A DNA stretch of 64,000 nt from Ramazzottius varieornatus (Eukaryota > Animalia > Tardigrada). The position numbers and the translations under genes are program-made. The stretch is from NCBI GenBank assembly GCA_001949185.1, contig BDGG01000009.1, positions 1,477,624 to 1,541,623 on the forward strand, in the 5' to 3' direction. Every line of letters starts with the position of its first letter. Position 1 is the first letter of the stretch. The notes below the pieces were generated by a model. It saw only the letters and a program-made list of their open reading frames with translations, did no database searches and was not told where the DNA came from. This document shows, one piece after another, positions 8,701-60,900 of the stretch.

Positions 8701-9878
8701 GCCTTGCACCTTACGGGATGCCAGTCGTGAACCTGCGTACACCCGGTCGTACGTTTACCGCGATGCGGGTGTATGCAGGTGGGTGTTGGCGTTTATTTCC
8801 CGATAGCTCGGTCGTCGTGCATTGCTTTACCGTGGGTGGTTTATTATTTTGTAGGGGACGTTCATGGCAACTACAGCGACCTGATGAGCTTTGAGAAAGT
8901 TTTGTGGCGTATGGGTCCAGTCTTGACACCTGCATCCTTCCTCTTTCTGGGAGACTACGTTGACCGAGGAGCATTCGGAGTCGAAGTGGTTTCCTACCTC
9001 TTTGCCCAAAAGTTTCTGGCGCCGGACCGAATGCTGCTGCTACGCGGAAACCACGAGCTTAGAAATGTCCAGAAAAATTTCACATTTTATGAGTACGAAC
9101 TTTGTACTCGTAATCTCCGGGTTTCCCAAGCAGCTTTTGTGTTGTAGAGAATGCAAACGAAAGTTTGGAGAGGCCACCGGTGAACGCGTCTGGGCGGCGG
9201 TAAACGACATTTTTGACTATCTGCCCATTGCCGCGGTCATCGACGAGGAGATATTCTGCGTTCACGGCGGAGTTCCCCATTATAAGCTGCTGAATGGCTC
9301 GGTGGAAGCCATCAACAAGATACCCAAACCTCTTCGCTCCGAAGCTGATAGCCCGCTGGCTTGGGAGCTGATGTGGAACGACCCAGTTGGGTAAGTGAAG
9401 GATGAGGAGGAAAGAGCCGTACCGCTGACCTTGTCTAACCTTGTCAGCTTCTGCTCACCTCTGGGGAACTAACGGTACTTTTGTACCGTTTTTATCCAGG
9501 ACGGAACGTATAACACCCGAGTTAGATCGGCTGCTGCAGGCTGATCATGGCTTTACACCGAACAACCGCCGTGGTACTGGCCACTTTTTTTCTTCCGTCG
9601 CTCTGGATCTCTTTCTCAAAGCCAACGGTCTTTCATACGTCATACGAGCTCATGAGATGAAACAAGCAGGCTTCCAGGTATGGTCTTGTCTGTAACGTCT
9701 CTGCCTTGTGGATAAAGGAAGAAATACCAAAAGGACTTTCTTCTTTTGGCAGATTCAGCAAGATGGTCGTCTGCTAACCGTCTTCTCTTCCTCGGGCTAT
9801 TGCAACAACACCAACGAGGCAGCCTGCATTCTGGTCGATCGGAGAAAGCTACGTACAATCCGACTGGACACCTCCTAA
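5738..9878 (+). CDS. PPP-family Ser/Thr phosphatase with N-terminal degenerate Nudix-like region and EF-hands; multi-exon
   Basis: [31 protein letters not shown] and RAHE motifs; EF-hand [12 protein letters not shown]; stop TAA 9876-9878. Confidence 0.85.
8730..8781 (+). ncRNA. pre-miRNA-like intronic hairpin (family member 1)
   Basis: ACCTGCGTACACCCGGTCGT / GCGATGCGGGTGTATGCAGGT form ~20 bp with one bulge; three G-U pairs work only on the sense strand; lies in a ~190-nt intron of the phosphatase gene. Confidence 0.55.
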
Positions 9879-10071
9879 CACTGCGTAATACCGGAGCCTT
9901 CGATGGCAGCTCATTGATTTTACCTTTTAATCTTTCAGTTTTCTTTCGTTCGATCGATACCCAAGTATTCGCCTAGCGCTTCTGTCCTATGGTTGCGGCC
10001 CCTTTTTGTACCGGTTTTAGACATGTAGTTTCGGGGTTGGTTTACAAAAGCTGTTTGGCGGATGCTCTTTC

Positions 10072-10767
10072 TCAAAAGAGTTTGTTGGTTAGCTGGTCAA
10101 ATAAATTCATTCGGCGGATGCGTCTGTTGATCTCTCCAGCTCGCATGAAATACTCGGCCATCATGTTTTGCCGATCTCCGACATCGTCCTGTGCGTCCGT
10201 CCTCCTGGGCTTGCCGGCCAGGATATCCATCAGAGTTAGGAACTCATCAAAGTCCAAAAGGCCAGAGTTGTCCACGTCAATTTCTTGGAAAAGAAGCTGA
10301 CGCTTCTCCCTGTTGGAGTTGTCACCAATGTTGTCCAAAAGTTGAGACAGCTCGTCAAAGTCTAGCAGACCATCTTGGTTCAGGTCCAGCAGCTTGAATT
10401 CAATTTGGTAGTCTTTGATGTCCTCCTTTGTCAGCCTCGGATACTTTTTCATAATTTCCTCGTAATCCACAGCTGCAATATTTCATCTCACATTCAATAG
10501 TGGCCACCACACCTGGAAGTTACAAAGAGACTGACCGATATACTTGCGGACGCAGATGTTTATCCTGTCGCGCTCTTCGTGATGTTCGCTCAGATGAGCT
10601 TCATGTACGCCGTCGTAGATGCTCTCTCCCTGTTCCTCATCCTCCGCAGCGTCTTCGGTGTTTCTTAGTTCACCTGGACAAGCGCAATATCTGGTTACAG
10701 AATAAGGTTTGGCTGCTAGGCTGACATTTGCGCTCACCTAGAGTGCTGAACTTCTCTCGAAGGACAT
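10072..10767 (-). CDS. small calmodulin-like protein with two EF-hands (3 exons)
   Basis: EF loops DLNQDGLLDFDE and DVDNSGLLDFDE; upstream exons MSFERSSALG and ELRNTEDAAEDEE join in phase. Confidence 0.75.
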
Positions 10768-11457
10768 AAGAGACGGGCTGCCGCGAGATCGGAAAGCTTA
10801 GACCAAGACCCATGTAACTTCGATTGTCAATTATTCGCTCTTTTCTGTTAAACGGATATTTGCAAGACCAATTTATTTGCGTTCGACCTATTTGGAGATA
10901 ACTAGACCACGTTTTTTGTGAGTGGCAGTTTCCAGGGTGTTGAGATGGGCTTCCGTTTCCGCCCAGTACCAGTGCTGCCACCTGGTCAGTGTACAGTACA
11001 GTACTGTACTGTACTTCCTGATCGCAGTCCTGGTTAAGTAGTTGGCCATCCAATGTCCCGACTGCCGCGCCACTGGGCATTTGGTCAATTAATACGATAC
11101 TGCCTGCAATTGCCGGTGTGTTTGACTGGACCTCAAAGGTCTCAGTGTCGTCAAGGTAGCATCGTCGAGGTATCAGTATCGTCGAGGAGGTCGAGGCACT
11201 ACTTTACCGAGTAGTGCATTGCCACCATCGCCCCAGGTTGAACGTGTGGTCGTGTGCTGGCCCTACCAGTTTTTCTCCACTGCAAGTAACATCGATGGCC
11301 TTATGTCGATGGTGCACTCGAGCAGCTGTATCCGACATTGTGTTGGCCAAGCTTGATGATACAGCTGTTGAACTTCGAGAGAATGGTTACGTCGTAGGCT
11401 GCCCGAAACACGACAGTCTACGATTAGTACGGTAAATAATTATGGTCCTTGAGTGCC

Positions 11458-13281
11458 ATGAGAATTTTCGTGATGGGGGATGACAGTACCAAGGATGCAC
11501 CGCATTTCATGCGGCGTTACCTCTACAGCAGTCGATGCGTCCACATTGCGGCCAAACGATGGAAGTTGATGACAGCCGTCCTTCTCTGTTTGTTGTTCAT
11601 TGCAGGATGGCGTTTTTATAATGAGCTGCATGACACTGGGTCAAAAAGTGCAGATGTCAAAACTGTATCGCCGTCGAAGAAGGAGCCGCCAGCTGCACAT
11701 GTGGAGCACGCCTCAGTTGTGGCGGCAGGGAATAATGGGAGACTGTTTTACAACCGTGTGCCGAAATGCGGAAGTTCCACATTAGTTTCCCTGCTGAAGA
11801 AGCTGGCTGTAAGGAATGGATTCACTCATGTCCAATCTCCACTGTTGGACGAGTGGTCCTTATTCATGCCAGCGCAGCAAGTGAGTTTTGATATAAACTT
11901 TTTCCATATGGAGCTCGCGCGATCGACATGTTTTCGTCTTTCAGGAGGCCTTCGTGAAAGACTTCGTGCAAAACCCAGTCGACACCAGCTTTGATCGGCA
12001 CCTTTTCTTCCTCGATTTCGAGAGGTGAGCTCGAAGCCGCCCTGACTCCAGCGTGCGCCTCGCAGAGCAACCCGTTTGTAATTGTCCTCAAAAACTGAAA
12101 TCCTTCAGGTACAACGAGGAAAATCCAATCTACATCAACATGATCCGCGACCCAACTGAACGATTTATCTCAGAGTTTTACTTCCGGAGAAGGCTGCAAA
12201 ATGAAGGTGTTAAGCAGGGAGAAAAGAAATGGTACGACGAGGTGAGCAGCGTTCTCTGCAGTATACGGCTGGATGTAGTCATGGTCATTAGTCATGGCCA
12301 CCTCATAGTCTTCCATTGCTTCACCCTTGCTCCAGATCCCTTCGTCCGATTCCTAAAATTCGAAAGCCATCATTTAGATTTTAAAAGGCACCTTCGACTT
12401 TCCCGTCACGTGACCTACGGGGTCACATGTCAATCAATCAACTGGTGAGCATCGATGGCAGACACAAGCAAATAAAGGTAATTTTTGGCTCCCCGTAAAC
12501 CTGTCACGTGGCGTGGCAGTGGGAGCCAAAAATTACCCTTATTTCCTTGTGCCTGCCATCGATGCTTACCAGTTGATTGATTGACATCGACGGAATCAGG
12601 TGTTGAAATTGTTGAAATCAACGAAGACTTTGGGGGTAGCCATGACTAATGACCGTGGCTGTATTTACGGGTTACAGAACCGGAAGTTGGGTCGCCACCA
12701 GGGCCCACCACATTCTGCGAGCCATGACACAAGTTTTCGTCCGATAAATCCGATCGGCTTGCACCAAGTCACGATGCTCCTTGTAGGATCTGGACAATTG
12801 CATAAGGACTGGAAAGGATTATGATTGCCGTCTCGTCGAAGGGACTTTCTTGAAGAACATGATCGCCTTCTTCTGTGGCCACGAAATGGAGTGCTCGTAG
12901 GTTCATAACAGCATATGTTCGATGACTTAGAACATCCAGCAGAAAAATGACCGGGATGTCTTTTATAACAGACGACACGGAAGTCGTCATGCTCTGGAAC
13001 GGGCCAAGGAGAAAGTGGAGAAGCATTTCGCTGTGGTCGGGATTCTTGAAGACTTGGACATGACGCTCAGTGTTCTCGAACAGAAACTGCCCCGTTACTT
13101 TGCTGGAGTCATGGATCTGTGGTCGGACTCCAACAGCGACGGCCAAGTGGTCAACAAAGGACGCAACAGACGGCAAGACGTCTCGCCAGAAACCAAAGAA
13201 ATCATTCGGGCTAACCTAACCATCGAATACCAGTTTTACGATTTTATAAAAAATAGGCTGATAAGCCAAAGCCGCCACTAA
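11458..13281 (+). CDS. heparan sulfate 2-O-/uronyl 2-sulfotransferase-like Golgi type II membrane protein
   Basis: N-terminal TM; PAPS-binding FYNRVPKCGS; YINMIRDPTERFISEFYF; FFCGH; VVGILEDL; EYQFYDFIKNRL. Confidence 0.85.
12276..12661. mobile_element. MITE-like palindromic element in a sulfotransferase intron
   Basis: ~38-bp imperfect TIRs (TAGTCATGGTCATTAGTCATGGCCACC... / ...GGTAGCCATGACTAATGACCGTGGCTG, then TA) and an inner ~65-bp inverted repeat at 12428-12586. Confidence 0.7.
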
Positions 13282-13619
13282 ATGCATCAACTTGTACCCA
13301 TCGTGGCCACATCTCCAGATTGAAAGGACGAACAGGTCGGCAAGAGTAAGTTTCATTTTGGATCGGACTAACGTATTCAAAACCCACATCAGCCATTTTC
13401 GGGGAAAAACAAGTCGACACGAGTTCAGTACAAGGCGTAAGGTAAGAGAGGGGACCATATCCATAACAGAGCTTCACTCATCAAAGCAGGACAACAGCGG
13501 CAATAAAATGATAAAGAGGGAGAGGATAGAGTTAAAAAGAAAAAAACAAGTGACTCGCACAATCAGCAGCAGCAACACGTCAAGTCAGCCAGTCAGTTCT
13601 GCTGGCAAATGCCCACTCT

Positions 13620-14911
13620 TCAAACGCTAACTTCCAGGCCGAATCCATAGCGATGTCCGCCTCCCGACAAGTTCTGGCCATTGATCAGCGAGGATAGCGT
13701 CAAGTTGATGCCCTTGCGCAGTTCTTGTGTGTAGCTGAGACCCAATTGCCCCACAGTGTCGACTTTGGCCTTGATGGAGGCGGTGGGGTCCAGGTCGTAC
13801 CTGGCCGCGACGCCCAAAAGGGTGTTTCCGCCTTGTGTCGAAAAGTTGGACTGGAAGCCAATCTCCAACTGAGGATCGACGCGGTTCCACACACCCATCT
13901 CAAAGTCCCGAAAGTGCGTCGTGCCGGCATGGAGAGTGTACCGACTAGCACCCATACCTAGAGCCACGTTGTACCTGAAAAGACACTGGATCATTACAAG
14001 AGAAACCAGTGGAGTAGCAGGCACAGAACGCAACATCTGTTAATGGTGGACCACAAGGTTGGACTTGTTCGCCAGCAACCTGTCAACTAGCCGTTTACTT
14101 TGCCTTTACGACCCACCAAAAGCCTGCTTTGCCTGGGATAGTTTACCGAGCTAAAACCTCCCCCACCAGTGCCGACCAATCCATCAGTTCCTACCTTGTG
14201 ATGGCCGACTTGGCGCTGTCGAAAACCATGCTACCACCCAGTCGCATGCCGTTGTAGGAGGTAACTGCCGACGAGCGAACGATGGGACCAGCAAAGTCCA
14301 GGTCGACGTCGGTGGTCAAATGCAAGAATGGTCGTCGCACCCTGAAGTTCAGTCCGGCGTTACGCTTGCCAGTTTGAGCTGACAGCCCGGCGACAAAGGT
14401 GACTTTAGCTCCGGCCATCATCGTGTCTTCGACGGACGCCTCCATGGTCACCATGTTGTCGGTGCTCCATCTTTCCAGCAGCGTTAGACCGTAGTCTTTC
14501 TGGGTGAAGGTGTGCTCCAGAAAGCCGTAAGCCTGCGGAGAGTCTCCGGCAATCTCTTGCTGACCAACCCCGCGGATCTGCACGCCATTGGCAGTCGTAG
14601 TCTTCACATCAATCCGGGCATGTCCTATGATAAAAACCAGCCATTGATACCAGGAATCTAAAGAATGCACTATGTAATCAGCGACAGACCATACATACCA
14701 ATATTGTAGTTCTTGGCGAACAGGTCTTTTACACCTTTGTTCTACAGGACCGTGAAACAATATGGTGGATGAGCACTGAGCATAAGGGACTTTCACCAAG
14801 CACATGGTCACTTTGGCACTGCCTGATGGAACTCACCAGATCGGCAAAGGCTGGAGGAATCTCTCCCACTACCCTGTTGGCGCTCTGAACATCGGGCAGG
14901 AAAGAAGCCAT
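13620..14911 (-). CDS. VDAC: voltage-dependent anion channel (porin)
   Basis: PPAFADL..KDLFAKNY; GLTLLERWSTDN; DVDLDFAGP; C-terminal GLSYTQELRKGINLTLSSLINGQNLSGGGHRYGFGLE. Confidence 0.92.
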
Positions 14912-15583
14912 CTGCAAATGAATCAACTACTAACGTTAAATGCTGGAACGTGCGCAGGTGAGCTTGAAGGACGTACCTTGATAGTTTATGAGAAGAATAA
15001 AGGCTGAGCTATCAAGCTTGGAAGATACCTGCGGGGACAAAGAACCAATTATAACTGGGGAAGGTCGACCCGAAGCTGTTACCAGTATCCCTCTCTCACA
15101 CTATGTGTACTTCTGGGAGCCATCGAGATCTTACCTGTTTGCTCCAGAGATCCCCAACTCCAGACTTCCGAAGTAAGAATGGGTTCTGAAAATATGGATT
15201 AACTTCGCCCTTCGGAAAAGACGAAATAGGTTTCTCTGAACTCTTCTTGCGTCACCCATCTTCTGCAATTTTCTTATTGGATATTGCCTGCTGTCGCTTA
15301 ATATTTGACTGGCTGAAGGAGAAAAAAGGCAGTCGTCGCAGGATCCAGCCTTTGCTTACGTAATGTCATAGTCTATTACAGACCGAATTGATTGAATGAG
15401 TTGATTGGGTATCCGATGATCAAATTAAAATTAATTCCAGTCGAATCATTCATTTTCCGAAACAAGCTTCTTCCAGTTCTAGAATCCAGACCAGGAGATT
15501 AGAACCTAGACCGATCAGCTCCTGAGTTTTCAAACGAAGGTACCAGCTGCTAGCGGACGGATTGTCGACGGTTAGGGCTGGCA

Positions 15584-28107: not shown

Positions 28108-30241
28108 CGCTGCAAAGAAAGATGGTTAACATCAACACAAAGCACTAACTGCTCCAACGACATCATATCATACGGATATCTCAGCAACCTTACCTCCAGA
28201 TTTCGACCAACCTGACGTTGGACTGCAGAACACTGGTCACTCTGCTGTCCCTGCTGGTCCTCGTCCAAGAGGCCCCACGTGCGTGTCTGTCAAACCGAAG
28301 CCATCCAACACCCACCTAGAGAGAATCTTTCGGAGAGTATGACTACAGATTTGGAAGCCTCTTCCTCGGAATTATGATCAAAATACAGATCATTCACATA
28401 AGCACATATGACAGGCATATGCCACAACTGAACATAGGAAAGCCAACCATCGATGCAAACAGCTGGGCATAAGAATGCTCGCCATCGACAAAACTTGTCG
28501 GTAAGGCGTGGCCAAACTACGCATGTTGCATTGACCAATTAAAACAATCGTCAGAATTAAGACAGACGCTTGATTGGCTGTATTACCTCACACAACGTCA
28601 TTTGACCACGCCTTGATGAAAAACTTTGCCCAGTGCTCAACATTTTTTTGTTATTTTTTCGGTTTTCCAAAAACACGTATTCTGGAGTTCTCGCGTCTTT
28701 TCAGCTGGAGACAACGTCAAGGCCCTGGTCAGGTAACTCGCACTTCTAAGTCACGATCTAGCCCGGGAAGATTATTCGAACACAGGGTCTGTGCAGTGTC
28801 CGATTAGGAGCTGTAAACAGAAGGTGCCCTTCCCGAATACTGTCATTCTGTCGAATGGCCTCCGTGCATGCGTAGATTACCAGTCAGATGTAGAGAGCGC
28901 GGAAGAATGAGAAACTAGACACTGTAGGTTCGCAACCGGTTCCTTTCGTACCGGTCGGGGAGAAAGGATAAGTGTTCTCATTGAAGTCCTCTATATTGTT
29001 CTCTGCCCACAGGCTGCAGCTACAGTGTACGACAAAATTAACCGTTAGAAATGGGCGTGACACTGCAACTAGAGCTTGTTTACAACTCAGCCAATGAGAA
29101 TTATGTCTTGCTGCATGTGCAAATTTCATTGGCTCTATCCATCTGGCTTCATCCAACACCCATTTTTAACGGTTTATTTTGTCGTACACTATAGGTAGGC
29201 TAAAAGCGTCCGCATCTCACATCTGTCTATACTCGTAATTGAAAATCAATCCTCTCTCGACAGGGAAAACAAGGTCGGAAGAAAGCCCAAGATGAATTAT
29301 TACTGTTTGCAGGCATGCGATGTGGAGAGCAAGGGACATTGTGAGGCGAGCCGCCAGCGAAAACTGGGAAGGAGTGGAGAGGTAGAGACGGGCCGGCCCC
29401 TGAAATTGAAGAACTCTACCAGCCCAGTCCACTTCTTGGTTCCGCCTCCAGAGTCTTCCACTCACAAATCCTACGCACGAAATCTGACCTAATTCAGCTC
29501 GAAATCAGCGTTTAATCAGCTTGTTATCTTATTTTGCTAGGGTTTTGATCAAAAAAGGCCATGAATTGGCATTAAACGAGCTTTCAATCCAGCTTTGTCT
29601 TGCGAACGAGATATCTGGCTGGGCTGGTAGTACTTGTAGGAGCTCGCTTGGGCAGGCACAGTGGGACTTTCCAAGTCAACGCTGAATATTTACAAGAAGT
29701 TAAGCCGTCCGATAATCGAGCCACTTTAATCTTGTGTACGTTATAGTGGATGATTGTCGACTTGGTGGTCGTGCTTCTTTCCCGCTGTTGGGTCGCCGCA
29801 TCGTATCAGTCTATACTGTATTGTACATGACTGTAGGGTGCTGCGGGCTGATTCAGGAGCTATTTCCGGCGTAGCCTCCAGCCAAGTCGTTGCCGACCGA
29901 CAACCGTGCTGCTGGCTCGGCCAGTAGACGGAATCATAACCATGTTATCCCGGTCGATAGCAGCGTAACATCAGCGGCTGAGAACGGAGCTAGAGAGAGC
30001 CCAGGCCAGTATAGCCAGTGAGTTTGACTGTGGGGCTGATGGCTGAGGGACTGGAAGGAAGCAGCAGACTGTATTGATGAGCAAGAGCTGCATGTGTAGG
30101 GGCAGTGCTGAAAGATGGATCGGGGAAAAAGGTTTTCCTTGCAAAAATGACTCCCACGATGTGGAACTAGTAATCTTAATTAAAATTTGCGATCAGGCTT
30201 GACTTAACATAAGCGCCTGTATTGGCGGCTCTTCCTCCATT

Positions 30242-34018: not shown

Positions 34019-34061
34019 TCGTCTTGAGTGGATTCTAGTTCCTCTTCTGTAGGCCTTGGCT

Positions 34062-42459: not shown

Positions 42460-42568
42460 GGTTAGGTGTGACATATCTGTGTCATGTCATGTTATGTGTG
42501 TGACATCTGTCAGCGACCCCGTGACATCTGTTTAACATGATAGGGTGTCTCGGACACCGCAGGTCCGC
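42460..42568 (-). repeat. dispersed repeat, copy B
   Basis: Reverse-complement homology to 32319-32435. Confidence 0.6.
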
Positions 42569-42962: not shown

Positions 42963-43668
42963 CTAACCGTACCTGAAGACAAATACAATTTCAATTTTGA
43001 CTACGAGGTTAACGACATAATTCGGGCATCGTGGTTTTTCGCTCGTAATTCGGCCATAACTTTTCTCAGCGTTTGCTGTGCACAATGAGCTGCTCCTTGT
43101 TTCCTGAGGTAAACTGGTCCCTCTCCTCGAGGTTTTGATAGGTTTGAGAACGACAAAGCGTTGTGGATCACGTGAATTTGGCCTGGGGGAGGGATGGGTC
43201 TGTTCAATGTCGAAAAGCCTAATGTTGTATCAACAGGCGTACGATGAGAGATGAATCAAGCATTGACGATAATGTTTAAACGTTTCGCGTTGCCCGAATT
43301 ATGGTGCGAAAATCGGTATGCCAGAATTATGTCGTTTACCTCGTATGGTGCATACTGATTCTATAGAAATATCAGTGTTGATAAGCATGGACCGACCTGG
43401 AACGCCCTTGGTGCTGGTAGAACTTGTCCAGTCCATGTAAGCGCTTCAGAGTTTCGGCCAGGCTGTGAAGCTTCTGGAAGTCGGGAGGAGGTAACATGGC
43501 GCCTTCTCGCCGATACAAGCCTTCTCCGGGGTTATAATTAGCATAGGAGGAAGGGTCCGCAAACAGCATGTCCAGGTCAACAAGAGCTGATCGCTTCTGC
43601 GCCGAAACCACGAGCATCATCACCGACAAGCAAATCAAGAGTAAACAAGAAAGACGAGCTGGCATCAT
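42963..43668 (-). CDS. neuropeptide F/Y-like precursor (2 coding exons)
   Basis: Signal peptide; RR site; 38-aa peptide ending FYQHQGRS-R|YG-stop, with an intron splitting the penultimate Arg codon (AG|G) as in NPY/NPF genes. Confidence 0.75.
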
Positions 43669-44627: not shown

Positions 44628-46832
44628 CTAGGGACACAGCCAGCCGCCGAAAGCCCTTTCCAGCTCTTTGGCCACAGCCAGGGAAAATCGATCGTTGTAG
44701 TGGTTACTCACCTGAAAAACAAGATAAGACAGGTGAATCTTGAGGTAATCCAACTGTAGGTACAATGTACCTAATACGGGACACTTACGACTTGGACACC
44801 CAAAGGAAGGTTGTTACTATCCAGACCAAGAGGAATATGGGTACTGGGCAAACCTGAAAAAAACACTTTGAGCAGCCCTGTGCACAACAAAAAAATCATC
44901 ATTCAGCCCACCTAGAACGTTGAATATGGCGGTGTAGGCAAAGTTGAAGGGCATCAGCAGCGGCTGATGGTGGAAAGGCGCTGTACGCGGATGTGTGGGA
45001 TAGATGAAGACACCATCCGGCCCCAACATCTTCACAAAGGTCTCCTCTAGTTCTGCACACATCTGGACAAAGTGCTCTTGTCGTTCGGGGAACTTGGCCG
45101 TTACCTCTTCTGTCAGTCCCAGAGCGACGGCCGGGAAGGTGTGGGGCGACAGGCCCAAGAACCACTTGGCCAGCTCCGTATAAGGGTTGACCTTCCCTTC
45201 TCTGTTGGCCATATCCTCGGTGAATGTGTGGTCGTCCATGGACATCATGGACGACCAGACGTCCAGCGAGAAGCGGAGAGGCTTGATGGGCTCGAAGGAG
45301 ACCATCTCGGCGCCACAGCGGCTCTCCAAGTGATGAACGGCATCCATCAGTGCCTTCTTGATCGACGTCTGGACAGGCGAAATCAGTGGGAAACCACCGT
45401 CGTCCACTGCGAAGTACAGCTTTAACTTTGAGAGGTCGACGGGCTGGTCGAGGAGAAGACGATCGGCCTTGGAAGCCAGAAGCACCTACGAGAAGATGGC
45501 GCTGCACTTACGGCCTTTCCCATAATCCATCAAAGATACACTGTATTTCTAAGCTGTACAGAAAAGCAGGCATCTCCACTACGTTTAGCGTACAGTGAGA
45601 GTATGATACCTTGTACATGGGGATCAGATCCTCGGAGAAGCGACACATCGGACCCGTCACCAGGAACTTTGACAGAGCACCCGAAGCGTCTAAAATACAA
45701 TTGTTCATCTCCAGTATTACGTGCCGAGTAGCGGCTTCCCAGCATGACGAAAGATCAATAGAAGCTTACCGGGAAACTGGCCAGCGTTTGAGACTAATCC
45801 GAAGGTTGGTTTGTGTCCGAAGATACCGTTGAAGAAAGCCGGCATGCGGATGGAGCCTCCAATGTCAGAGCCGATGCCCATTGGCGAGCCACACGACGCC
45901 AGCAGCGCTAAACGAAATGCACACATATCAATGAACTGAAGATAGCCAGATGAAGCTAGTTAAGTTTGAGGCAAGGGAGGCGGCCTACCCGCTTCACCAC
46001 CAGAGGAGCCCCCAACCGTTCGTCGGGTATCGTAGGGGTTGCGAGTTTGACCGTAAATCTTATTACTCGATTCCCACCACATGCAGATTTCCGACACATT
46101 GCTCACCGCCAGCGCAATACCACCTGCAAGAATCAGCGTCCAATACTTTTATCCATCGACACGTTGACAGGAGGTTGTGGACTAAGAAGCCTTCCTGCTT
46201 CGTACCAGCTGCCCGCATCAGCCTCACACAATCCGCGTCTTCCTTGGCTACAAAGCCTTTCCTCAAGTAAAGTCCCGACGTGTTGGGCAGACCCACCACG
46301 CGCATACACTCTTTGCAGGTGAATGGTACACCTGCAAAACATATTATGGATAATCAACTCGCTCTTCGCTGTAGAGCGAATGATAATCTGACGGAAAACC
46401 ATGCTCACCCAGAAATGGTTTTTTGTCCACAGAGAATTCATCGCTCAGTGAGCCACTTTCCAGCAGACGATCCACCTGGCGGGCTTCTCGTCGGGCTTCT
46501 TCGAAACGGTCGGCAACGACGGCATTGATGATGGGGTTGACATCCTTGATACGCGTGATGAACTCTTCCACCACATCAGCACTGCGAATTTCACGGGCAC
46601 GAATCTTCCGAGATAGGAAAGTGGCCGACTCCAGCAGAAGAGTGGAGCGAGGTGCTGGAAGGAAGACTCTCGGGTGGAAGGCCGAGTAGTACAGTCCAAA
46701 GAGGACATCTGTCACACAGTCCAGGATAATCCTGACGAGGAAACACCAGTAGAATGCCACCGTCTTCACCACAGAAACCACCGACAGATGCTCACGGTCC
46801 ACCGTGAACATCTCGACCTTCAGTCTGTCCAT
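44628..46832 (-). CDS. FAAH2: fatty-acid amide hydrolase 2-like amidase
   Basis: [13 protein letters not shown]; KKPFLG; GGSSGGE; amidase signature [25 protein letters not shown]; LERAFGGW. Confidence 0.92.
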
Positions 46833-50719: not shown

Positions 50720-53700
50720 ATGGAAGATCCTGTCGGTGCAACCGCGTACTATCGTTCTACGGACCCGCAGAAAAACTTCAAGATCAGGTAATTATAAGAT
50801 GAGGCTCCCTTGTTACGCAGAAAATCTGTAAGTTGGTTCTTCGTTTCAAATGCGATAGGCCAGGCAACGTGATTTTGCAGGGTACGAATACGAAAGTTGG
50901 TTCCTGCTGTCCCAAAGCCAATCAGCGGAGCGGCTCCTGCACCACTCGACCCAGATAAGTTGGTGGCAGAAGTGACGGATAATTATCCTGTGAGCGCAGC
51001 AGACCTTGAGCAAGAAGGATATTGTCGAACCTTTTCCTGGCAGGAACGAATCTACAGTCGAGTATGGTGTTTGCAAAGCTCGGTACAATGGACCCTGTTG
51101 AAAGTGGTGCGTCGTTTCAGGCGGAGCAGGTATTGTACAAGGACTTGAAGAACTGCGATACCCCCAGGAAGAAAGCTATCCATCAGGTCGTCATAGCCAT
51201 AACTGATGCCGAACGACAGTTCCATGACGGTCCTCTTTACACTTGGGTCGACGCTGATGTCAGCTCTGAAATGAATGCGGTTGGTCAGCTTTCATTTCTT
51301 TTACAGCTCCCAAATACGCCACAGTTGACAGGTCTTCAAGTATACTTGCTGGGTTTTTTCCCCAGCTAACTCCGCTGACGGATGACGAGAATGTTACGGA
51401 AACCCATCTGGGGACCGATGCCGCGCCCTACCGGCCACGACGACCTCGTATCGAAGATTTGTAAGTGGACTGGTTTGGCAAAGTTATATCCAGCTTGACG
51501 ACCAGACAACTGACAAATGTTATCCTAGGAGTTCACAGAATAATCAGCGGGAAGTTTTCCGTCTGATGTCACCGAGACACAATGTTGCTCGTGCTACAAC
51601 AGCCATGTTCATCATGGTGAACCTGACCGACACGAATGCACCGAAGTATAAGCCAACACTGACAAAATTCATCTTTTCAGCATTCAAGCTTACCAGAATT
51701 CATCTAGGCCGTCGAAGGACAATGGGATTCGTGTCCTGTGCAAAATGCAGGTTGATTCGGAGGGACTACTTGCTGTTCAACCAGATTTCAACGCCTCCAG
51801 AAGCCCTTACGTAATCGACGTCAGTCGCCCGGGTAAAGTCGCAGGTACTAGCTGAACTGGATACTCGGTTCTCACTTGAAAATGCCATCACCATGTTGTC
51901 ATCTAATGATACTGGCTTTCGGACCAGAAAAGTACGAATATCACCTGGAGCACGCTTCGGAAAATATGGCTCGGTAAGGGCCTCGGGTCCGATGGCCGTC
52001 TTGTAACTCGTACTTCCGCTATCTGTCGCAGCTCTTGAAAATGTCGTCTTCTAGCAGGATGGACTTGGAGAAAGAAAAGCAACTGTTCAGAGCCCTGTAC
52101 CAGCGCTACTCCAACCACCAAGCTGTCTTGGTGGGAAACGATTTCGATATGGTGAGCAAGCAAACATTCACTCGTACATCCTCCAATTATCTCATCTTAT
52201 GCACACCCTCCATCATTTTAGCCGAAGGATGGATACACCCGCCTTTACTATTCCGGAGAAATTGGTACCACAGCTATAGAAGGCTCGGCGAAGCTAAAAT
52301 AAGCCGTTCTTAGCCGTGGCTAAAAATATTTTAGCCGCGACTAAAATGTATTGTGCGTTCGATTGATTTATTGATGTTGAGTCGGCTAAAATAGTTTTGG
52401 CATCAATTAATCATTCGAACGCACAATACATTCTAGCCGTGGCTAAAAGTATTTTAGCTGCTTTAGCCGCGGCTGAAATATTTTTAGCCACGGCTAAGAA
52501 CGGTTAAAACGGCTTATTTTTAGCTTCGCCGAGCCTTCTATAACCATAGCAATGTTGTTTTCGATAAGTCAGACAGTCAGTTTGCGAAACAAAAGAGGTC
52601 AGATGGGTTAATGTAATAATATTTGCAGTTGATGCCGATGGGTTCGACCACGACGATCTATTTGTCCATTTCCTTCTGGAAATTCCATCAGGTATGCACG
52701 ATATAATTTCAAACAACCGGACAAGACCGCTACTTTTATGGTAATGGAAGATAATTTGTTGATGTCCCGACTAGGCATGAGGCTTTTTTTAAACGCCAGC
52801 TGCCTGACAGATTTACGTTTTATCGTTGTAGGGTGGACTAGCGAATGGGGTTCTTCGGGAGATAAAGAGCCGGCTCATTTTAGTTCACAAATTGCTCAGC
52901 GCCGGAAAGTACGGGAGGCTTCCTCATGTTGTGTTATGAGGGACTAGTGTGTTATTCTTGACCAAGAAATGTGCGAAGCAGGCTGGAAGGCACTTTTTCG
53001 GATGCCCTTTCGGGTGGAACATGGAGTACTCGGCGGAGTCGCACCTTCCGACAGATTCAAACTACCGCCTTGACTGGCCAAGGCTGCTCTTCGAAGTCGT
53101 CTCTCTGGATGCTTGGAACCGATACCGAGTTGAAGGTTATGGCTTCCTGGACGTCTTGTCAGCGGTTGGGTCCGCTGTGGAAACTGTCCATACCTGGATA
53201 CCGATTGGGGAAGGGAGCAACGCAAAGCTTCGACGATACTTGGTGGGTGGTGGAGCAGAGCTGGAGAACCTAAATTACGTGACCGTTCCTCGAGACTTCA
53301 AGGTTAGTTAGTTATCGAGTTACCTGTGCCTCTATGATCCTGCTTCCAGCTTGTTTGGTTCGCTTTCCCCAGGCCAAAGAATTCAGTCGGTATGGATTTC
53401 GCACTGCGGGCGCGGGAAGACTTCGAGTGCGACATACCTTGATAGTGCAACGCGGGTAAGCTTCCCACCGGTAATGTTCGGCTTTCTCCACACGAGGACG
53501 GACAACCAAGGCGTAAATCGGTACATTTCGTTGCAGAATTTCGACAAACGGTCAGAACAAGCTGTCGTATATCTCAAGTCGCTACCATCGGGGTTTCAGA
53601 GGAGATCCCCAAAGGGCATCGTACGTGATTACTCTTAGGAAATGCACACAATACACAATGTCACCTCATAAGACATCATCAAAAGACAGTATGCTTGCAG

Positions 53701-53800
53701 GATGGCTACATTTGACCAAGCCGTGGAACGAGTTCTGGAAGCTTTCAAGCGAGCTCGGCGACGCCTCCTTGAAGCGCGTGGAATTTTGAATGTGGATTAA
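50720..53800 (+). CDS. MKS1: Meckel syndrome type 1 B9-domain transition-zone protein
   Basis: YYRSTDPQKNFKIR; FSWQE; WPRLLFEVVSLDAWNRYRVEGYG; LRRYLVGGGAELE; SRYGFRT; VLEAFKRARRRL. Confidence 0.9.
52277..52540. mobile_element. TA-flanked palindromic MITE (Tc1/mariner-like) in an MKS1 intron
   Basis: TA|TAGAAGGCTCGGCGAAGCTAAAATAAGCCGTT ... AACGGCTTATTTTTAGCTTCGCCGAGCCTTCTA|TA; nearly the whole element is an inverted repeat with TAGCCG(T/C)GGCTAAAA subrepeats. Confidence 0.85.
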
Positions 53801-54754
53801 TTACTGTACTCGGTTCGACTTCCCTGTGTAAAGTTGGTCTGCAACTTGGCATTGTCTCTTTTTTATTGATTGTGATGTATGGATATCCGCTGCAACCTGG
53901 AATGTTACGCAATTTAGATGAACGAACATGCTGTGAAAAGTAGCAGACGTGATGTGAGAGTAAAGAACCATAGCTTTACTCCTGGACACTGGACAAACCA
54001 CACGGCTGGAGCGGTCGCATGTAATGTATGGTAATGTTAGAGTATGTAAGATAGGGAGGTACGTGAGCGTACCGGTTTTCGGGCCGAACCACTTGTGCCG
54101 AGCCGCTCATTTTGACCAACGGTTCACGAGGATAAAGCGGGTTGCTCCAAGAGAGGCTGAATACGTCGTATTGCCGTTCGCGTTTCGATACAAGAGGCAG
54201 CGTTATTGAGCGAAGACACATGACGTCAGGAACGGGTCCCGCACAACAGGACTGCCTTTCGGAGAAACAACCTTTTCTTCTCATTCTGAATTTCTGATTC
54301 CAGTATTCCAGTCGCTGGGACATTCTTGTCGAACTCTTTGCTTTCTCGCCGTTTTGTTCTTTCTATTACAGGATTTGCGGATTATCTTGATGCTGTTCTG
54401 CTCCTAACGAACTATCAGGACAGATCGATCTAAGACCGAAAGCAGCTGGATACATCCCGAAGTAGAAAGAACGCAGCCAGGCAAGTAAGTACCCTCTTAA
54501 TCTCTTATCATGTCGGTTGGTTGGGTATTCATCAAAGTTAATAGGATAGGAGGCGCGGCTACTGTCAAGCTCTTTCCATCGAACATATCTGTTTCATTTG
54601 AAGATCTTGTCCAGCTAAAGCCAGCCCGACAGCCGTGAGTGAAGTTGTTACAGGAACAATCTGACTGACCCGTTACAGGCCTGAAGGTATGTTGATATAT
54701 CATCCTGGTTTGACAAACGACGAAGATCGTTAATGAGTTCGGTCTTGGTTGTAG

Positions 54755-55209
54755 ATGTCAAACAACAAGTTTTACTACTCGGACAAGTACAACGATAGCG
54801 AGTATGAATATCGGTAAGTGGATGGTGTCTGTAGAGCGTTAGATTGTCACTTCCATTGGAGATGCCTCCTCTGCTTGCAGACACGTTGTTCTGCCAAAAG
54901 ACATGGCCAGCCGAGTTCCAAAGTCGCGCCTCATGACGGAGAATGAATGGCGTGGACTAGGCATCCAACAGAGCCTAGGATGGGAGCATTACATGATCCA
55001 CAAACCAGGTTTGTATTGCTCACCTATTTAACGTCGTTCAAGACTTTGTGGTCTCTTTATATGTTGCAGAGCCTCACATCATCCTCTTCCGACGTCCCTT
55101 GCCCGAAGACTTCAAGCGAGAAATGCAGATGAAGAAGGACAAGAAGCGTGAAGAAACCTCGGGAGCTGACATCATGCTAGCGGGACGGCGGGAAAAGATT
55201 AACGTCTAG
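54755..55209 (+). CDS. CKS1: cyclin-dependent kinase regulatory subunit (Cks)
   Basis: YYSDKY.DSEYEYRHVVLPK...[36 protein letters not shown]. Confidence 0.95.
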
Positions 55210-55598
55210 AAGTGGGGGACCATTGAAGCAAAGCAAGCGGACCAGTAGCCAAGCCTAGCTTTACATTCTACTATCAGAGGGTTGTTTTTCTCACTGTATA
55301 TTTTAGTTTTCCAAGCGAGGCCTCCACTCGACTTTTCAAGGTTTCTACATGCTGGTTCGCTATCCTTCCGTTTCCTCTATTCAGGGCCATATTCCGACCC
55401 GTTGTACATGTACGTAGCCTCACATGTAAGACATCTTGATAGTGCTCAGTAGATAGTCCATTTCCGATGGACGATAAACCGCCACACATCTCTTTTCGTC
55501 TGCTAGTCGCTGTAGAATAAACTGCAGTTGCTGCATCTTGTTTCCCCTGTCAATTCGGGTCACTTGTCCATATCCTAAAAGTCCGCATTCTGTTAACG

Positions 55599-57710
55599 AT
55601 GAATATTATAGGACTGGTGCTCCTCCTTGTCTGTAGCTTAGGTGCCTGTTATGGAAGATCTGGGCCTCGTATGGCGGAATCATGGCGGGATATTCAGCAG
55701 CAACGGAAGGCAGCGCAGGATAGCCTGGGGCAGGGGCAGTTGTGGCCCGAACCTCAACAGTACAACTGCAGCAGCAAGCTGCTCCTCCTCGAGCACTTCC
55801 GCTTCGCAGTCAAAGGTCCACGATGCAGTATCCTGGACGAAGCCATCCAGCGTTACTACAAGATGATTTTCAGGAGACCCTCCAAACCTCGCCACTGGTT
55901 AAAAGCCAACTCTTCTGGAAAGGGCGATATTGCGACGCTGTCCAAGGTGTACATTATGATCAACCCTCAGAACCCGTGTTCGGATAATGATATGCCGGAC
56001 GTTGACATGGACGAGCACTACGAAGTCAACCTGCGCGACCCCACTTTCCCCTCGCTGATTGTGGCAAATACCATCTGGGGAGCTCTGCGAGGCCTTGAGA
56101 CCTTCAGGTATAAAATTCCTTGATGTGAAAGACACAGTTGGAAAGGAGAGGGGCGTTAATGAGGGGAATAGTCTGTCTTGTTTTGCAGCCAGATGATATG
56201 GAAGCTGGACGATGGGCGTATGGTGGTCAACCAGTCCATCCTTGTCGACTACCCCAGGTTCTCCCACCGCGGCTTGATGTTAGACACCTCCCGCCACTTC
56301 ATCTCCAAGCAGGTTCTTCTGCAGAACTTGGATGCCATGGCCATGAACAAGTACGGTAACAGTTTCACTGGAAGGGCGTCGCAGTAGACTGACGATGTCC
56401 TAGCTGACCTCCTTGTTGTTTAAAGGTATAACGTCTTCCATTGGCATATTGTCGACGACCAGAGCTTCCCTTATCAGAGTCGGACGTTCCCTGACCTGTC
56501 GACGCTGGGTGCTTGGGAGCCTTATGAGCACATTTATACACAAGAGGATATCGCCGAAGTTATCGAATATGCCCGCCTTCGTGGCATCCGCGTAATCGCC
56601 GAGTTCGACACACCTGGCCATTCAGCCTCATGGGGAGCCGCCTTATCCCAGCTGCTGACACCCTGTTACAGCAACGGCTCGGCCGACGGTACATTCGGCC
56701 CTATCAACCCTATCCTCAGCTCGACCTACGAGACGCTAGAGGCACTCTTCACCGAAATCATGGAGGTCTTCCCCGATAACTACCTCCATTTGGGCGGCGA
56801 CGAGGTGGACTTTACTTGCTGGCAAAGCAACCCGGCCATCACCACCTTCATGAACAAGTCTGGCTACGGCAAAGACTACGCCAAGTTGGAAGAGTACTAC
56901 ATTCAGACATTACTGGATATCCTAGAGAAAATACCGACAAAGTTGCCGGCCAAGGTCGCCCCTAAGAGGCATGAGTTTGTGGTGTGGCAGGAAGTCTTCG
57001 ACAACAATGTGGTCCTAGACGGCAAAACCATCGTTCATATCTGGAAGGACTGGAAGGGCACCGAATGGCAGCCCGAAATGCACAGTGTAACCAAAGCCGG
57101 ATATCGGGCCATTTTATCAGCTTGCTGGTACCTCAACTACATTTCCTACGGCGCAGACTGGCAAACCGTAAGTACATACTTGAGAATATTAGGTTCACGT
57201 TTCCCCCTAGATAACTTTTCTTTTAATTTGCAGTATTACAGATGCGATCCTCAAAATTTCAACGGAACTGCAGCACAGAAGAACTTGGTTGTCGGAGGAG
57301 AAACATGTATGTGGGGAGGTGAGCTGTTAACCCGCTTACGCATAGCTTATTCGACTTCCAGCCCCTGGAGGTTCTGGACTGAACAACCCTACTGCTTGTC
57401 CTCGGTTCAAGTTCTTTTTCTCCCCAGAATACATCGACAGCACTAACGTCATGATCAAGCTGTGGCCAAGAGCTTCGGCCGTGGCCGAGAGACTGTGGTC
57501 GGCCCAGTCTGTCACTGATATCGGTAATGCCGAGAAGCGCCTGAGAGCTCACAGGTACGTCCATCATTACTGACCAGCTCTGCAATCTAACGCATTCCAT
57601 CTCAAGTCAGTTTTGTGCGACTGTCTCCCAGGTGTCGGATGAATAGAAGGGGAATTCCGGCGGAGCCCAATCTCGGACCCGATTTCTGTGCCACCGAATA
57701 CTCGCCTTAG
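55599..57710 (+). CDS. GH20 beta-N-acetylhexosaminidase (HEXA/HEXB-like)
   Basis: Signal peptide; LWPEPQ; [10 protein letters not shown]; [16 protein letters not shown]; [11 protein letters not shown]; EFDTPGH; catalytic HLGGDEV; WYLNYI; [14 protein letters not shown]. Confidence 0.95.
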
Positions 57711-57979
57711 CAAAGACCTGGCGCAACTTCGAGAGAAACTCTTTGTAACCGACCAACATTTTTTATTGTCAACTTCGATGTACGTAACGTATCTGATCCG
57801 CTGATGAGGGAAAATAAAAACTCCATGATTTGGGCGAGCGAAAGAGCGATGCTTCAGACCAGGAAAATGAAAAATTTATAAAACATCAATGTACAGTAAT
57901 TCGACAAAAGTGAACCTCGCTATCAAGTCCACAAGAAGTAGTAAAAACTCTACCGAGACACACTCTTCAGACAAACATC

Positions 57980-60900
57980 CTAATGCATCTCCACATCACC
58001 ACCACCCGGAAGAGATTCGTTCTTGACCGTCTCCCACATTGCCAAGATTTCTGTCGAGCCTTTGATAACGCCTTGCAGTTCCGCAATGGACCGTGACTTA
58101 TCTGTCAAATGATCAAAATGGTGTTACTCACTCATCAAGTTATTGAGAGCTGATTCAACCACACATTTGGGAAACAAGCAAAGAGAGACCCCCATTCCCC
58201 ACACCTGCATACAGCAGACCATTGATTCACCACACAGCGGCCCATATATGCAGTTGCATGAAAGCTTCTCCTACGATGTATCTCAGACACCTGCATACAT
58301 CGAGCCGTCTATATCCCGTGCCATGACGTATGCAGGCGAAGCGCACAGTCGCCGTGCTGCATCTCAGTCAATTATTGACGGCATGGCACTAACCTGCATC
58401 AGGCAGCAGCGTCAGCGCATGGACAGCTCTCAATGCCGCTCGCTTCAGTTCGTCCACCTTCTCGTGTTCCTGCTTGACCGAGTTGGGCTTGACCTTGAAG
58501 TTGAGCGTCTTGGCTATTTCTGTGGAAAAGTTCTCCAGTCGCTGGGTGAGGGCAGCGGGAGCCGCCTGTACCAGACGGCGCACAAAGAGAAAGCACAAGG
58601 TCTTGATGTCGTAGTGGTCAGCCAGGCCACGCAGGACATGGTCCATAAACTCAAACATGTCCAGCTTGTCCAGACAGCCGTTCAGCAGCGTGTACAAGCA
58701 CTCGTAGGCAGCTTTGCGACAGTCCAGACCATCGTCCACTTCGTGCTTAAATGGACCCATCTCCACCTCTCGAATCAGCTCCGCCTACAATCCCCACCAC
58801 AAAACACAATGGTTCTTTTTCCATAAAGTCCAATTTACTTACTAACAGACCAGACATTTGACAGAAGCCGGCCGAACTTTGATAGTGAAACCTCTCTGAC
58901 ACAAACCTTGATCTGAGTCTCTTTATAGACGAGTGGCAAAAGACTACTGAGTTTATCATTTAACAGCGACGGCTTATTGTGCGCCACTGAGTTGAAGAGC
59001 GTCAAAGCGGTTCTGCGGACACTCAAGTCCGGATCGTTGAGGAAGTTGAGAAAGGCCGCAATGACTTCTCTCAGAAGCTGGTCGATCGGACGACGCTGCA
59101 AAAAGAAGGTCACCTGCCATCTTTCACATTTGATTGCTGAAAAAGGTAAGGCTCGATAGATGGTTTGACGTACCTCGTCGGAGATGGTGAACTTGATGGT
59201 GGTCAAAATGGTACATTTAACTTGGACCGAGGGAGATCGTTGTAGAGCAGTGACCAGCAGAGGAACAAAGCGTTGAGGATCGAGCGCTGTCAGCTTGCCC
59301 AGACATTCGCCCAACAAGTTGCGATAACCTTCCTCTACCGTACCAGCTCGCGTCAAGAGAGCATTCCTGGCAAAAGACAACAATACTTACCAAAGTCCAT
59401 ACAAACAAGAGCCAAGTCACAATTCCCTCGAGCTGCTTCTGCCAGTGGCGCACTCTTCCAGTCTTATTGATTGAAAGCGTGCTCCACTGGGGGGAAAATG
59501 CTCTTGTCGACTTTCTTTGCTCTCGCTTTACTTGGCGCTAATCTATCTGGCCAGATCTTTGCTGTAGTGACTTGGTTTGCAGCCACCGTCAAATCAGCAG
59601 TAGCAATTGTGATTGGTCGATCGGCTTTTGCGGCATATCTTACTGCAGATTCTAGACTGTGGTTCCACTCTACGTTTATTTCCAGCGTGCCGGTGTGGTC
59701 TCACAGCCCGGCTCGTCAGTCTTTCAACCATGGAGCACAGTAAATAACGGCTGGGTCTGGCGCCCAAACTGACAGAGTGGGCGGAACAGTAACTGATACC
59801 ACGCCCCCTTACCGAACTGACCGTGTTGCCATTATTTCCCACTGCAAAATCTACCAATTAATCACCAAAAACTTGAATGGTCGCAGGACCACTTCGAGTC
59901 TTTGTGGATGCTGCTGGATATAATTAGCAAGCACGATAGCAGACAGAGTTCATCAAGAGTCCACTCAGTCCACCGCTNNNNNNNNNNNNNNNNNNNNNNN
60001 NNNNNNNNNNNNNNNNNNNNNNNNNNNTGCTTGCTAATTATATCCAGCAGCATCCACAAAGACTCGAAGTGGTCCTGCGACCATTCAAGTTTTTGGTGAT
60101 TAATTGGTAGATTTTGCAGTGGGAAATAATGGCAACACGGTCAGTTCGGTAAGGGGGCGTGGTATCAGTTACTGTTCCGCCCACTCTGTCAGTTTGGGCG
60201 CCAGACCCAGCCGTTATTTACTGTGCTCCATGGTTGAAAGACTGACGAGCCGGGCTGTGAGACCACACCGGCACGCTGGAAATAAACGTAGAGTGGAACC
60301 ACAGTCTAGAATCTGCAGTAAGATATGCCGCAAAAGCCGATCGACCAATCACAATTGCTACTGCTGATTTGACGGTGGCTGCAAACCAAGTCACTACATT
60401 TGCCTTACCACATTCGGTCGACAAAGGGGGCGATCATCGCCAGCGAGATTCGTTGGGATGGTACCAGGCTGATGAGTTCTTTCAAGGCATTAAAGAAGAT
60501 GTACTGCTTGTCCGAAGTCTTCTCCAGTTCCATCACGATGCCCGGCACGAACTTCTGCACGTTTCCGCCACACAGCTTACCTGCAATGGAAACAAGCCCA
60601 TAACTATACTTAGCAAAGTTCCCATCCTTCAGCGCACTCTCGACTGCTTTCGCTATATCAGACGTTGTGAGTAATCATCGTGTCGACTAAGCAGGGAATG
60701 TGAGCATAAATAACAACTTCATCATAACCATACAAATAATGATAATAGTTAACCACCTTCCAACTATAATGGGGTTCCTTACTTACCCAGCGCCACTGAG
60801 ACGATGGTTTTCGAGTCGTCCTTGCCATGCTCCAGAATGAAGTTTAAGGCTTGGCTGAGCTTTGGCTCGGCCACGGACAGATCCCTGCCGAGGAGGGAAG

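What the first reader, a model, noticed from the sequence alone, without database searches (positions are those of the whole stretch)
8730..58338. Dispersed family of intronic pre-miRNA-like hairpins sharing the 3'-terminal 12-mer UGUAUGCAGGUG
Seen: three ~51-55-nt hairpins, at 8730-8781 (+, phosphatase intron) and 58202-58256 and 58288-58338 (-, tandem in the last CAND1 intron). All are sense to their host genes and sit in unusually long introns. All have ~19-20-bp stems whose G-U pairs (3, ~5, 3) are valid only on the transcribed strand, which argues for selection on RNA structure rather than a DNA inverted repeat. Odd feature: the invariant part is the 3' end of the 3p arm, not a 5' seed; the 5p starts differ (CCUGCGU, CCUGCAU, ACUGCAU). 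The invariant end reads CAG|GUG, like a fused acceptor/donor. Inference: a lineage-specific small-RNA family, tailed mirtrons, or recursive-splice-site-masking hairpins. I do not recognise it as a known miRNA family.
Basis: partly seen in the sequence, partly recalled or inferred. Interest (0 to 1): 0.78.

Follow-up and report, generated by a model that had tools for sequence, protein, structure and literature searches.

The report
Tardigrade intronic microRNA-like hairpin family
Two genes of a tardigrade carry, inside introns, fold-back sequences that share one identical 12-base stretch; they are likely precursors of an undescribed lineage-specific microRNA family, but no small RNA from them has been seen.

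Summary
The window is from a eutardigrade. The three copies of TGTATGCAGGTG, their hairpins and both host introns are real. The reading needs three corrections. (1) Only the phosphatase hairpin pairs beyond its 12-bp arms more than chance. In CAND1 the two copies are predicted to fold mostly as one flipped inner hairpin, M (58314-58232; z -4.25), not as two tandem ones. (2) The G-U strand bias also occurs in transposon-like palindromes of this window. (3) The invariant block need not be a 3' end: a 13-bp Drosha ruler puts the 5' cut of M at the motif's first U. In the phosphatase hairpin the same ruler leaves it at the 3' end. CAND1 is a snoRNA-type host gene. There is no Rfam match and no match in the H. 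exemplaris miRNA table. MicroRNA-type precursors overall about 0.55, decayed palindrome 0.2, splice masking 0.1. No small-RNA reads, whole genome or orthologous DNA were available. The scan's earlier notes hold nothing similar.

The parts
8665..8854 (+). Host intron (190 nt, GT-AG) of an EF-hand / calcineurin-like (PPP-type) phosphatase gene; it splits the L-G|D-V-H-G motif
   Evidence: joint in contigs of X4, X9, X17; Pfam EF-hand and Metallophos
8716..8794 (+). H1 full hairpin, 34 rungs: 11-bp lower stem, 3x3 internal loop, 20-bp upper stem, 9-nt loop
   Evidence: -45.3 kcal/mol, z -5.8; ladder; lower stem P 0.01-0.04, apical stem P 0.016
8730..8781 (+).
   Evidence: z -5.89; rung 14 falls at 8730
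8770..8781 (+). Invariant 12-mer, copy 1
58102..58393 (-). Host intron (292 nt, GT-AG): last coding intron of CAND1
   Evidence: joint in contigs of X4, X5, X6; tblastn; Pfam TIP120
58288..58338 (-). H2 core; likely tandem duplicate of H3
   Evidence: z -5.18 in isolation; apical and lower pairing not above chance
58288..58299 (-). Invariant 12-mer, copy 2; the predicted 5' start of the M product
58202..58256 (-). H3 core
   Evidence: z -2.32; apical pairing P 0.39
58202..58213 (-). Invariant 12-mer, copy 3; pairs with the H3 5' arm, or with the H2 5' arm as the outer helix around M
58232..58314 (-).
   Evidence: -37.5 kcal/mol, z -4.25, 0 of 300 shuffles; pairing outside the 12-mer P 0.0005; ensemble probability 0.41-1.0
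58243..58299 (-). Predicted 57-nt precursor from M; predicted 5p product 58299-58278, beginning with the motif
   Evidence: inference from the ladder and the ~13-bp rule (PMC7668254, PMC9976908 passages)

Best explanation
Three identical 12-mers sit in hairpin-forming sequence in sense introns of two tardigrade genes, and these hairpins are likely microRNA precursors whose mature RNA would begin with the invariant UGUAUGCAGGUG. Shown: motif, host introns, sense orientation, no fourth copy in the window. Computed: the folds. Inferred: the host pre-mRNA is cropped by Drosha/Pasha and diced. The 12-mer is invariant because it is the 5' U plus seed (GUAUGCA) and centre of the guide, while the partner strand drifts by G-U wobble and the guide's 3' half diverges, the usual pattern for paralogues. 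In CAND1 a tandem duplication let the inner arms form a flipped hairpin (M) that would release this guide from the 5' arm of a 57-nt precursor, a hairpin shift. In the phosphatase intron the same guide would have to come from the 3' arm of a 72-nt precursor. MicroRNA-type precursors of either register together get about 0.55; this register gets 0.35.
For: Conservation is very uneven: the motif is 12/12 in all three copies while the interiors do not align (P 0.75-0.87). This argues for selection rather than neutral decay. No pair of the shared helix changes on both sides (0 of 11); every change is on the C/A-rich strand, which points to a sequence constraint on the G/U-rich strand. M has pri-miRNA size and is the preferred fold, and rung 14 from its base is the motif's first U. 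The 22-mer that starts at the motif pairs above chance in copy 1 (upstream partner, P 0.0025) and copy 2 (downstream, P 0.007; upstream, P 0.0025), and marginally in copy 3 (P 0.035 and 0.07). CAND1 is an RNA-cargo host: of 15 introns delimited, 5 of the 7 that are 176 nt or longer hold C/D-box-like repeats, one holds this element, and none of the 8 short ones holds any. In the H. exemplaris table the miR-36-type paralogues keep CACCGG at the 5' end of one strand while the partner strand varies (10 of the 89 rows read, of 507). Precursors of 72-80 nt also occur there.
Against: No small-RNA read was seen. In H1 the same 13-bp ruler cuts at 8730, which leaves the motif at the 3' end of the 3p strand; the register needed for this reading has only about 5 bp below the cut. 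The tardigrade ruler is unmeasured, and C. elegans uses about 16 bp (PMC9976908). The hairpin downstream of copy 1 is at chance level (z 0.1). The one downstream of copy 3 leaves the seed badly paired (pri-size z -1.1). No CNNC lies at +16 to +18 in any register. M arises automatically from any tandem hairpin duplication, and co-transcriptional folding would favour H2 first (inference). There is no counterpart in the H. exemplaris table. The translated first 213 nt of the same CAND1 intron in a Hypsibius-like tardigrade (P0005) cannot encode the motif. Invariance is also compatible with wobble saturation (p 0.18).
Confidence: 0.35

Rival explanations
1. One reading: H1, H2 and H3 are three short (49-53 nt) microRNA precursors. 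The guide is the C/A-rich 5' arm (seed CUGCAUA or CUGCGUA), or a 3' arm with a variable seed, and the 12-mer is simply the paired partner of the seed region.
For: H1 fits the 13-bp ruler, with a 34-rung stem. All three place the motif in the same register, and two of three share positions 2-8. H. exemplaris has 51-52-nt precursors with reads from both arms (8 distinct among the 89 rows read, counted by eye). There, 7 of 10 miR-36-type 3p strands also keep a shared 3' block (UUUGCC). H2 alone has z -5.2.
Against: H2 and H3 lack lower stems or apical stems above chance. The H3 5' arm pairs better with the H2 3' arm (-30.8) than with its own (-21.0). This reading needs a seed change in H1 while the passenger strand stays 12/12.
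Confidence: 0.2
2. Decayed copies of a small palindromic repeat (micro-MITE with CAC...GTG ends, or local inverted duplications) with no RNA function.
For: The ends resemble terminal inverted repeats (CAC...GTG termini recalled for CMC/Transib elements). The window holds several other palindromic elements with similar G-U strand bias. 36 of 110 unrelated metagenome loci that carry both arms fold into hairpins of 17 bp or more. Two loci in one 64-kb window could mean many copies genome-wide (inference).
Against: No target-site duplications; the flanks of H1 are complementary rather than repeated. The motif is 12/12 while the interiors are unalignable. Both loci are sense and intronic (chance 1 in 4).
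Confidence: 0.2
3. The hairpins mask a cryptic acceptor (UGUAUGCAG|GUG). When it is used, it gives a frameshifted phosphatase message, a shortened CAND1 tail, or a 5'-tailed mirtron.
For: The sites score 7.9, 6.1 and 9.4 bits as acceptors; real ones span 1.0-14.1, and these beat 94-97% of 170 decoy AGs (matrix from only 22 introns). The motif is paired in all folds. TGCAG|GTG is read as a true acceptor at 46318-46311 (-) (sequence). The H1 loop has UUUAC 20 nt upstream of the AG.
Against: Contigs of three runs per locus join across the whole intron. The donor part is not conserved (5.3, 1.5, 4.3 bits). There is no polypyrimidine tract and no shared branch motif. Introns under 300 nt give no reason for recursive splicing. 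The GUG after the AG is conserved too.
Confidence: 0.1
4. Another structured intronic RNA: a sequence-specific helix bound by a protein, or a hairpin diced by one of the extra tardigrade Dicers into siRNA-like products.
For: The conserved 12-bp helix begins about 13 rungs above the base in both H1 and M, though flipped. Tardigrades have 2-4 Dicers (PMC12505628 abstract and passages).
Against: No C/D or H/ACA boxes in usable positions. No Rfam match at E up to 10. No candidate protein.
Confidence: 0.1

Closest known systems
Canonical intronic animal microRNAs (Drosha/Pasha-Dicer pathway); lineage-specific tardigrade loci in the H. exemplaris miRDeep2 table (PMC5531438 S1 Data)
   Same: Sense-intronic; stems of 32-34 rungs (H1, M); precursor sizes of 50-57 nt; paralogues with one invariant strand and a wobbling partner.
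   Different: No sequence match in that table or in Rfam; no reads; no CNNC; H2 and H3 have weak lower stems; the two loci predict different registers.
Hairpin shifting in nematode microRNAs (seen only as described in the review PMC3308325, passages)
   Same: One arm gains a new partner arm on the other side, so the product moves between arms.
   Different: Here both folds still coexist, and the shift would come from a tandem duplication; inferred from one genome, with no ancestral state.
Tailed mirtrons and recursive splice sites (recalled)
   Same: The invariant end contains YAG|GU and scores as an acceptor.
   Different: Neither hairpin end coincides with a used splice site; the introns are short; the conserved block runs 3 nt past the AG.
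MITEs and MITE-derived hairpins (recalled)
   Same: Short terminal inverted repeats; dispersed copies.
   Different: No target-site duplication, no shared interior, one arm invariant.
Intronic box C/D and H/ACA snoRNAs
   Same: Same host gene type: CAND1 introns carry sn668-like C/D RNAs; the tandem pair mimics hairpin-hinge-hairpin.
   Different: No H box in the hinge, no ACA after H3, no C box upstream, no guide pocket.

Membership tests
Canonical microRNA | 20-26-nt reads from both arms with homogeneous 5' ends and 2-nt 3' overhangs | not testable with these tools
   all runs offered were kept as contigs
Canonical microRNA | Stem of about 35 bp with a lower stem of about 13 bp | tested here: inconclusive
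   met by H1 (34 rungs) and M (32 rungs); not above chance for H2 and H3
Canonical microRNA | 16 or more pairs between the two predicted 22-nt strands | tested here: met
   H1 19, H2 17, H3 19; M 17
Canonical microRNA | Processing motifs (CNNC at +16-18, basal UG, apical UGU) | tested here: not met
   no CNNC in place in any register; apical UGUG only in H3 and a near-position basal UG only in H1 (read from sequence). These motifs are optional and absent in Caenorhabditis (PMC9976908)
Canonical microRNA family | Shared seed among paralogues | tested here: inconclusive
Any described miRNA family | Sequence or covariance-model match | tested here: not met
   Rfam: none at gathering and none over the hairpins at E up to 10; H. 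exemplaris table: none. MirGeneDB and miRBase could not be searched directly
Mirtron / tailed mirtron | At least one hairpin end at a used splice site | tested here: not met
   ends lie more than 50 nt from the joints seen; rare use of the internal AG cannot be excluded with contigs
Recursive splice site | AG|GU with polypyrimidine tract and strong donor in a long intron, with intermediate junction reads | tested here: not met
   190- and 292-nt introns; donors 1.5-5.3 bits, not conserved; nascent RNA not testable
MITE | Target-site duplication | tested here: not met
   flanks compared
MITE | Many copies with a shared interior, in random orientation | not testable with these tools
   no genome held; interiors of the three copies do not align
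Box C/D or H/ACA snoRNA | C and D boxes flanking, or H box in the hinge and terminal ACA | tested here: not met
   box positions listed

The most novel reading that the evidence does not exclude
The CAND1 intron is a microRNA hairpin shift caught in progress. A tandem duplication made a two-state RNA: as H2 plus H3 it yields one set of small RNAs, and as the flipped fold M it turns the old 3' end into a new 5' seed, so intron folding would choose which small RNA is made. The family would be dispersed across tardigrade housekeeping and snoRNA-host introns.
Probability: 0.1. Interest if true: 0.72.

Novelty: new member of a known kind. Interest (0 to 1): 0.38.

Why it matters
Tardigrade non-coding RNAs are barely described; a 2026 review calls the knowledge sparse (PMC13389832, passages). 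A new family would add to that inventory. If fold M is what is cut, the locus would show directly how tandem duplication flips a hairpin and creates a new seed, testable with one small-RNA library. If the hairpins are relics, the case is a warning that G-U strand bias in intronic palindromes is weak evidence of RNA selection.

Tried and rejected
Whole genome: none held, so copy number, orientation and intron bias are untested. Sequencing runs: no RNA holder listed on record, and all runs were contigs; this says nothing on expression. Internal splice junction: none listed at CAG|GUG in five runs guessed to be RNA (X4 at both loci, X5 and X6, X9 and X17), but contigs drop rare forms. The H1 intron had no RNA-contig cover, which proves nothing. 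DNA run X1 laid one record at each locus at 80% likeness; it may be the source of this DNA and records are filtered, so this is only a weak hint against near-identical copies. I laid 6 of the 24 runs listed, and none of the four from other organisms. Metagenome pattern scan: 110 loci, none with a blastn match to the window at E 1e-3; taken as chance or unrelated palindromes. Covariance model from the three copies: no fourth copy in the window; the best non-self hit is 16.6 bits and lacks the motif. Phosphatase homologues with N-terminal read-through: 0 of 44 encode the motif, but their species were not determined, so this is uninformative. Downstream hairpin for copy 1: chance level. One search used a misplaced structure string and was replaced. 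Alignment A1 was unusable because the H2 and H3 windows overlapped. Literature: motif search in full texts gave 53 papers, of which the 20 listed were unrelated by title. Ramazzottius + miRNA, Hypsibius + MirGeneDB (0 papers) and tardigrade + snoRNA + intron gave no description of these hairpins. PMC5034306 has no miRNA list in its main-text passages or in 6 supplements searched, one of them cut when stored. Subscription papers, bioRxiv supplements, MirGeneDB and miRBase were not visible and could hold an annotation. Five look-ups of earlier scan findings gave nothing on this element. A 6-mer resemblance of the C/A-rich arms to the miR-153 and miR-242 seeds is recalled only, is not supported by Rfam, and is set aside.
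Full report
Organism and hosts. The last large CAND1 exon is 91% identical to an unnamed record (P0002), 82% to Paramacrobiotus metropolitanus and 78% to Hypsibius exemplaris; the other animals listed are at 66% or less. DNA runs holding the stretch total about 54 million letters. The window is therefore from a compact-genome eutardigrade; the species was not established. No whole genome was held. The first host is an EF-hand, calcineurin-like phosphatase gene and the second is CAND1. Contigs of three runs each, guessed by the tool to be RNA, join across 8665-8854 and 58102-58393.

The observation. TGTATGCAGGTG occurs three times, against 0.37 expected. Triples of some 12-mer are common (45 of 60 simulations), but triples with a complementary upstream arm each time occurred in 0 of 60 (post hoc criterion). 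The named cores fold with z -5.9, -5.2 and -2.3. A covariance model found no fourth copy in the window. The intron-length claim is only partly right. The phosphatase intron is the longest of six in its gene. In CAND1, 7 of 15 introns are 176 nt or longer; most of these boundaries come from tblastn and snapping to GT-AG and are approximate.

How much of each hairpin is more than the shared arms. With the arms held fixed, H1 has extra pairing on both sides: flank energy gain P 0.01-0.04 under three nulls, apical stem P 0.016. H2 (0.25-0.38; 0.085) and H3 (0.22-0.36; 0.39) do not. As a control, 36 of 110 unrelated metagenome loci selected for both arms also reach 17 bp. So H1 is a strong hairpin, and H2 and H3 are modest ones.

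The H3 5' arm pairs better with the H2 3' arm (-30.8 kcal/mol) than either pairs with its own partner (-28.6, -21.0). In six ensemble folds (three spans, 22 and 37 C) this inner hairpin M has probability 0.41-1.0, with the H2 5' arm and copy 3 often closing an outer helix. M scores z -4.25, and its pairing outside the 12-mer has P 0.0005. A tandem duplication of any hairpin yields such a flipped fold, so M is expected. What needs explaining is that the inner arms stayed the best pair, which suggests selection on M or DNA-level palindrome correction (inference). That H2 and H3 are duplicates rests on adjacency, the shared motif and gapped similarity read by eye; a global alignment of their interiors is not significant (P 0.75).

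The G-U argument. Sense folds carry 11 G-U pairs against 2 antisense: p 0.011 at an even split, 0.026 with the skew of a 14-intron pool, and 0.16 with the skew of the eight RNA-joined introns. Of five other palindromes tested, two in a + strand intron show 3:0 and 5:0 in the sense direction, one in a - strand intron shows 19:6 towards antisense, and two show no bias. The bias is therefore not diagnostic. The 6:0 split of changes between arms has p 0.03 unweighted and 0.18 when weighted by wobble-compatible sites.

What still argues for function. The motif is identical in three copies whose interiors do not align. The shared helix is 31 of 33 cells paired, with no two-sided change. There are no target-site duplications. 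CAND1 introns track RNA cargo: five long introns hold duplicated C/D-like elements, two of them matching Rfam sn668 at E 4e-5 and 1.5e-4, below the gathering score. The last intron has no usable snoRNA boxes.

Mechanism. Human Drosha cuts about 13 bp above the basal junction of a stem of about 35 bp, and C. elegans Drosha about 16 bp (PMC7668254 and PMC9976908, passages); the tardigrade value is unknown. On M, rung 14 is U58299, the first base of the motif. This gives a 57-nt precursor and a 5p strand that starts with U, with 17 pairs, and it makes the invariant block the ordinary 5' half of a guide. To start a product at the motif, H1 needs a 72-nt precursor with only about 5 bp below the cut. 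The two loci thus disagree. The H. exemplaris table supports both in part: miR-36-type paralogues keep their 5' block while the partner strand varies, but 7 of 10 also keep a 3' block, and 8 distinct 51-52-nt precursors occur among the 89 of 507 rows I read (two identical rows that I recall as rRNA-derived were left out). The remaining weight goes to a decayed palindrome (0.2), acceptor masking (0.1), another structured RNA (0.1) and a chance link between the loci (0.05). These weights are judgement, not computation.

Comparison with what is known. Rfam has no family over the hairpins at gathering score or at E up to 10. A whole-file search of the H. exemplaris table finds no gcaggug or cugcaua and no similar precursor among the shorter-term hits. 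The translated read-through of the same CAND1 intron in a Hypsibius-like tardigrade lacks the motif over 213 nt. Hairpin shifting is described for worms (PMC3308325, passages). Papers seen: PMC5531438 (passages; supplement 18 searched, parts 1-2 of 12 read), PMC5034306 (passages; 6 supplements searched), PMC12505628, PMC13389832, PMC3308325, PMC7668254 and PMC9976908 (passages); all others only as search listings. Statements on mirtrons, recursive sites, MITE termini and miR-153 / miR-242 seeds are recalled.

Verdict. This is a real, non-random set of intronic hairpins, most likely an undescribed lineage-specific microRNA-type family. The claimed oddity has ordinary explanations, and the decisive data (small-RNA reads, the whole genome, a sister species) were out of reach. 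Interest 0.38; new member of a known kind.

Noticed in passing
window 62717-62772 and 63841-63896 (-): Two near-identical (98%) intronic box C/D snoRNAs in CAND1; Rfam sn668 at E 1.5e-4 and 4e-5, below gathering; guide also shared with SNORD21; C, D', C' and D boxes present.
   Followed up: partly
window 60657-60727 and 62115-62185 (-): Second duplicated intronic pair (89%) with a C box (AUGAUGA) and a D box 64 nt apart; likely C/D snoRNAs without an Rfam hit.
   Followed up: partly
window 61588-61647 and 63460-63519 (-): Third duplicated intronic pair (87%) in CAND1; no canonical C box found, D box in one copy; RNA class unresolved.
   Followed up: partly
window 59563-59933 and 60028-60398: Perfect 371-nt inverted repeat around a 50-N gap in a 1042-nt CAND1 intron; probably an assembly artefact.
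   Followed up: no
window 43002-43345: TA-flanked element with 55-nt inverted ends (mariner-like start, recalled) in the intron of a - strand gene whose product looks like an NPF/NPY-type neuropeptide precursor ending GRSR|YG (label recalled).
   Followed up: partly
window 52275-52542, 12277-12660, 29020-29194: Nested or long palindromic (foldback / MITE-like) elements; the first lies in an intron of a B9-domain gene.
   Followed up: partly
window 58392-58399 (-) and 8927-8935 (+): The 5' splice site of the CAND1 host intron reads ATGCAG|GT, the core of the motif. The exon after the phosphatase host intron holds CACCTGCAT, the only other 9-nt match to the motif's end in the window. Possibly chance.
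   Followed up: no
window 46310-46340 (-): A 10-bp hairpin TTTGCAGGTG...CACCTGCAAA spans what reads as a true acceptor of an amidase-like gene (label recalled).
   Followed up: no
L049:821-1020, L098:215-366, L057:71-155, L052:1170-1276: A family of near-perfect ~80-nt palindromes containing the same 12-mer, in L098 downstream of a tRNA-like head (SINE-like), from unrelated metagenome contigs; no similarity to the window.
   Followed up: partly
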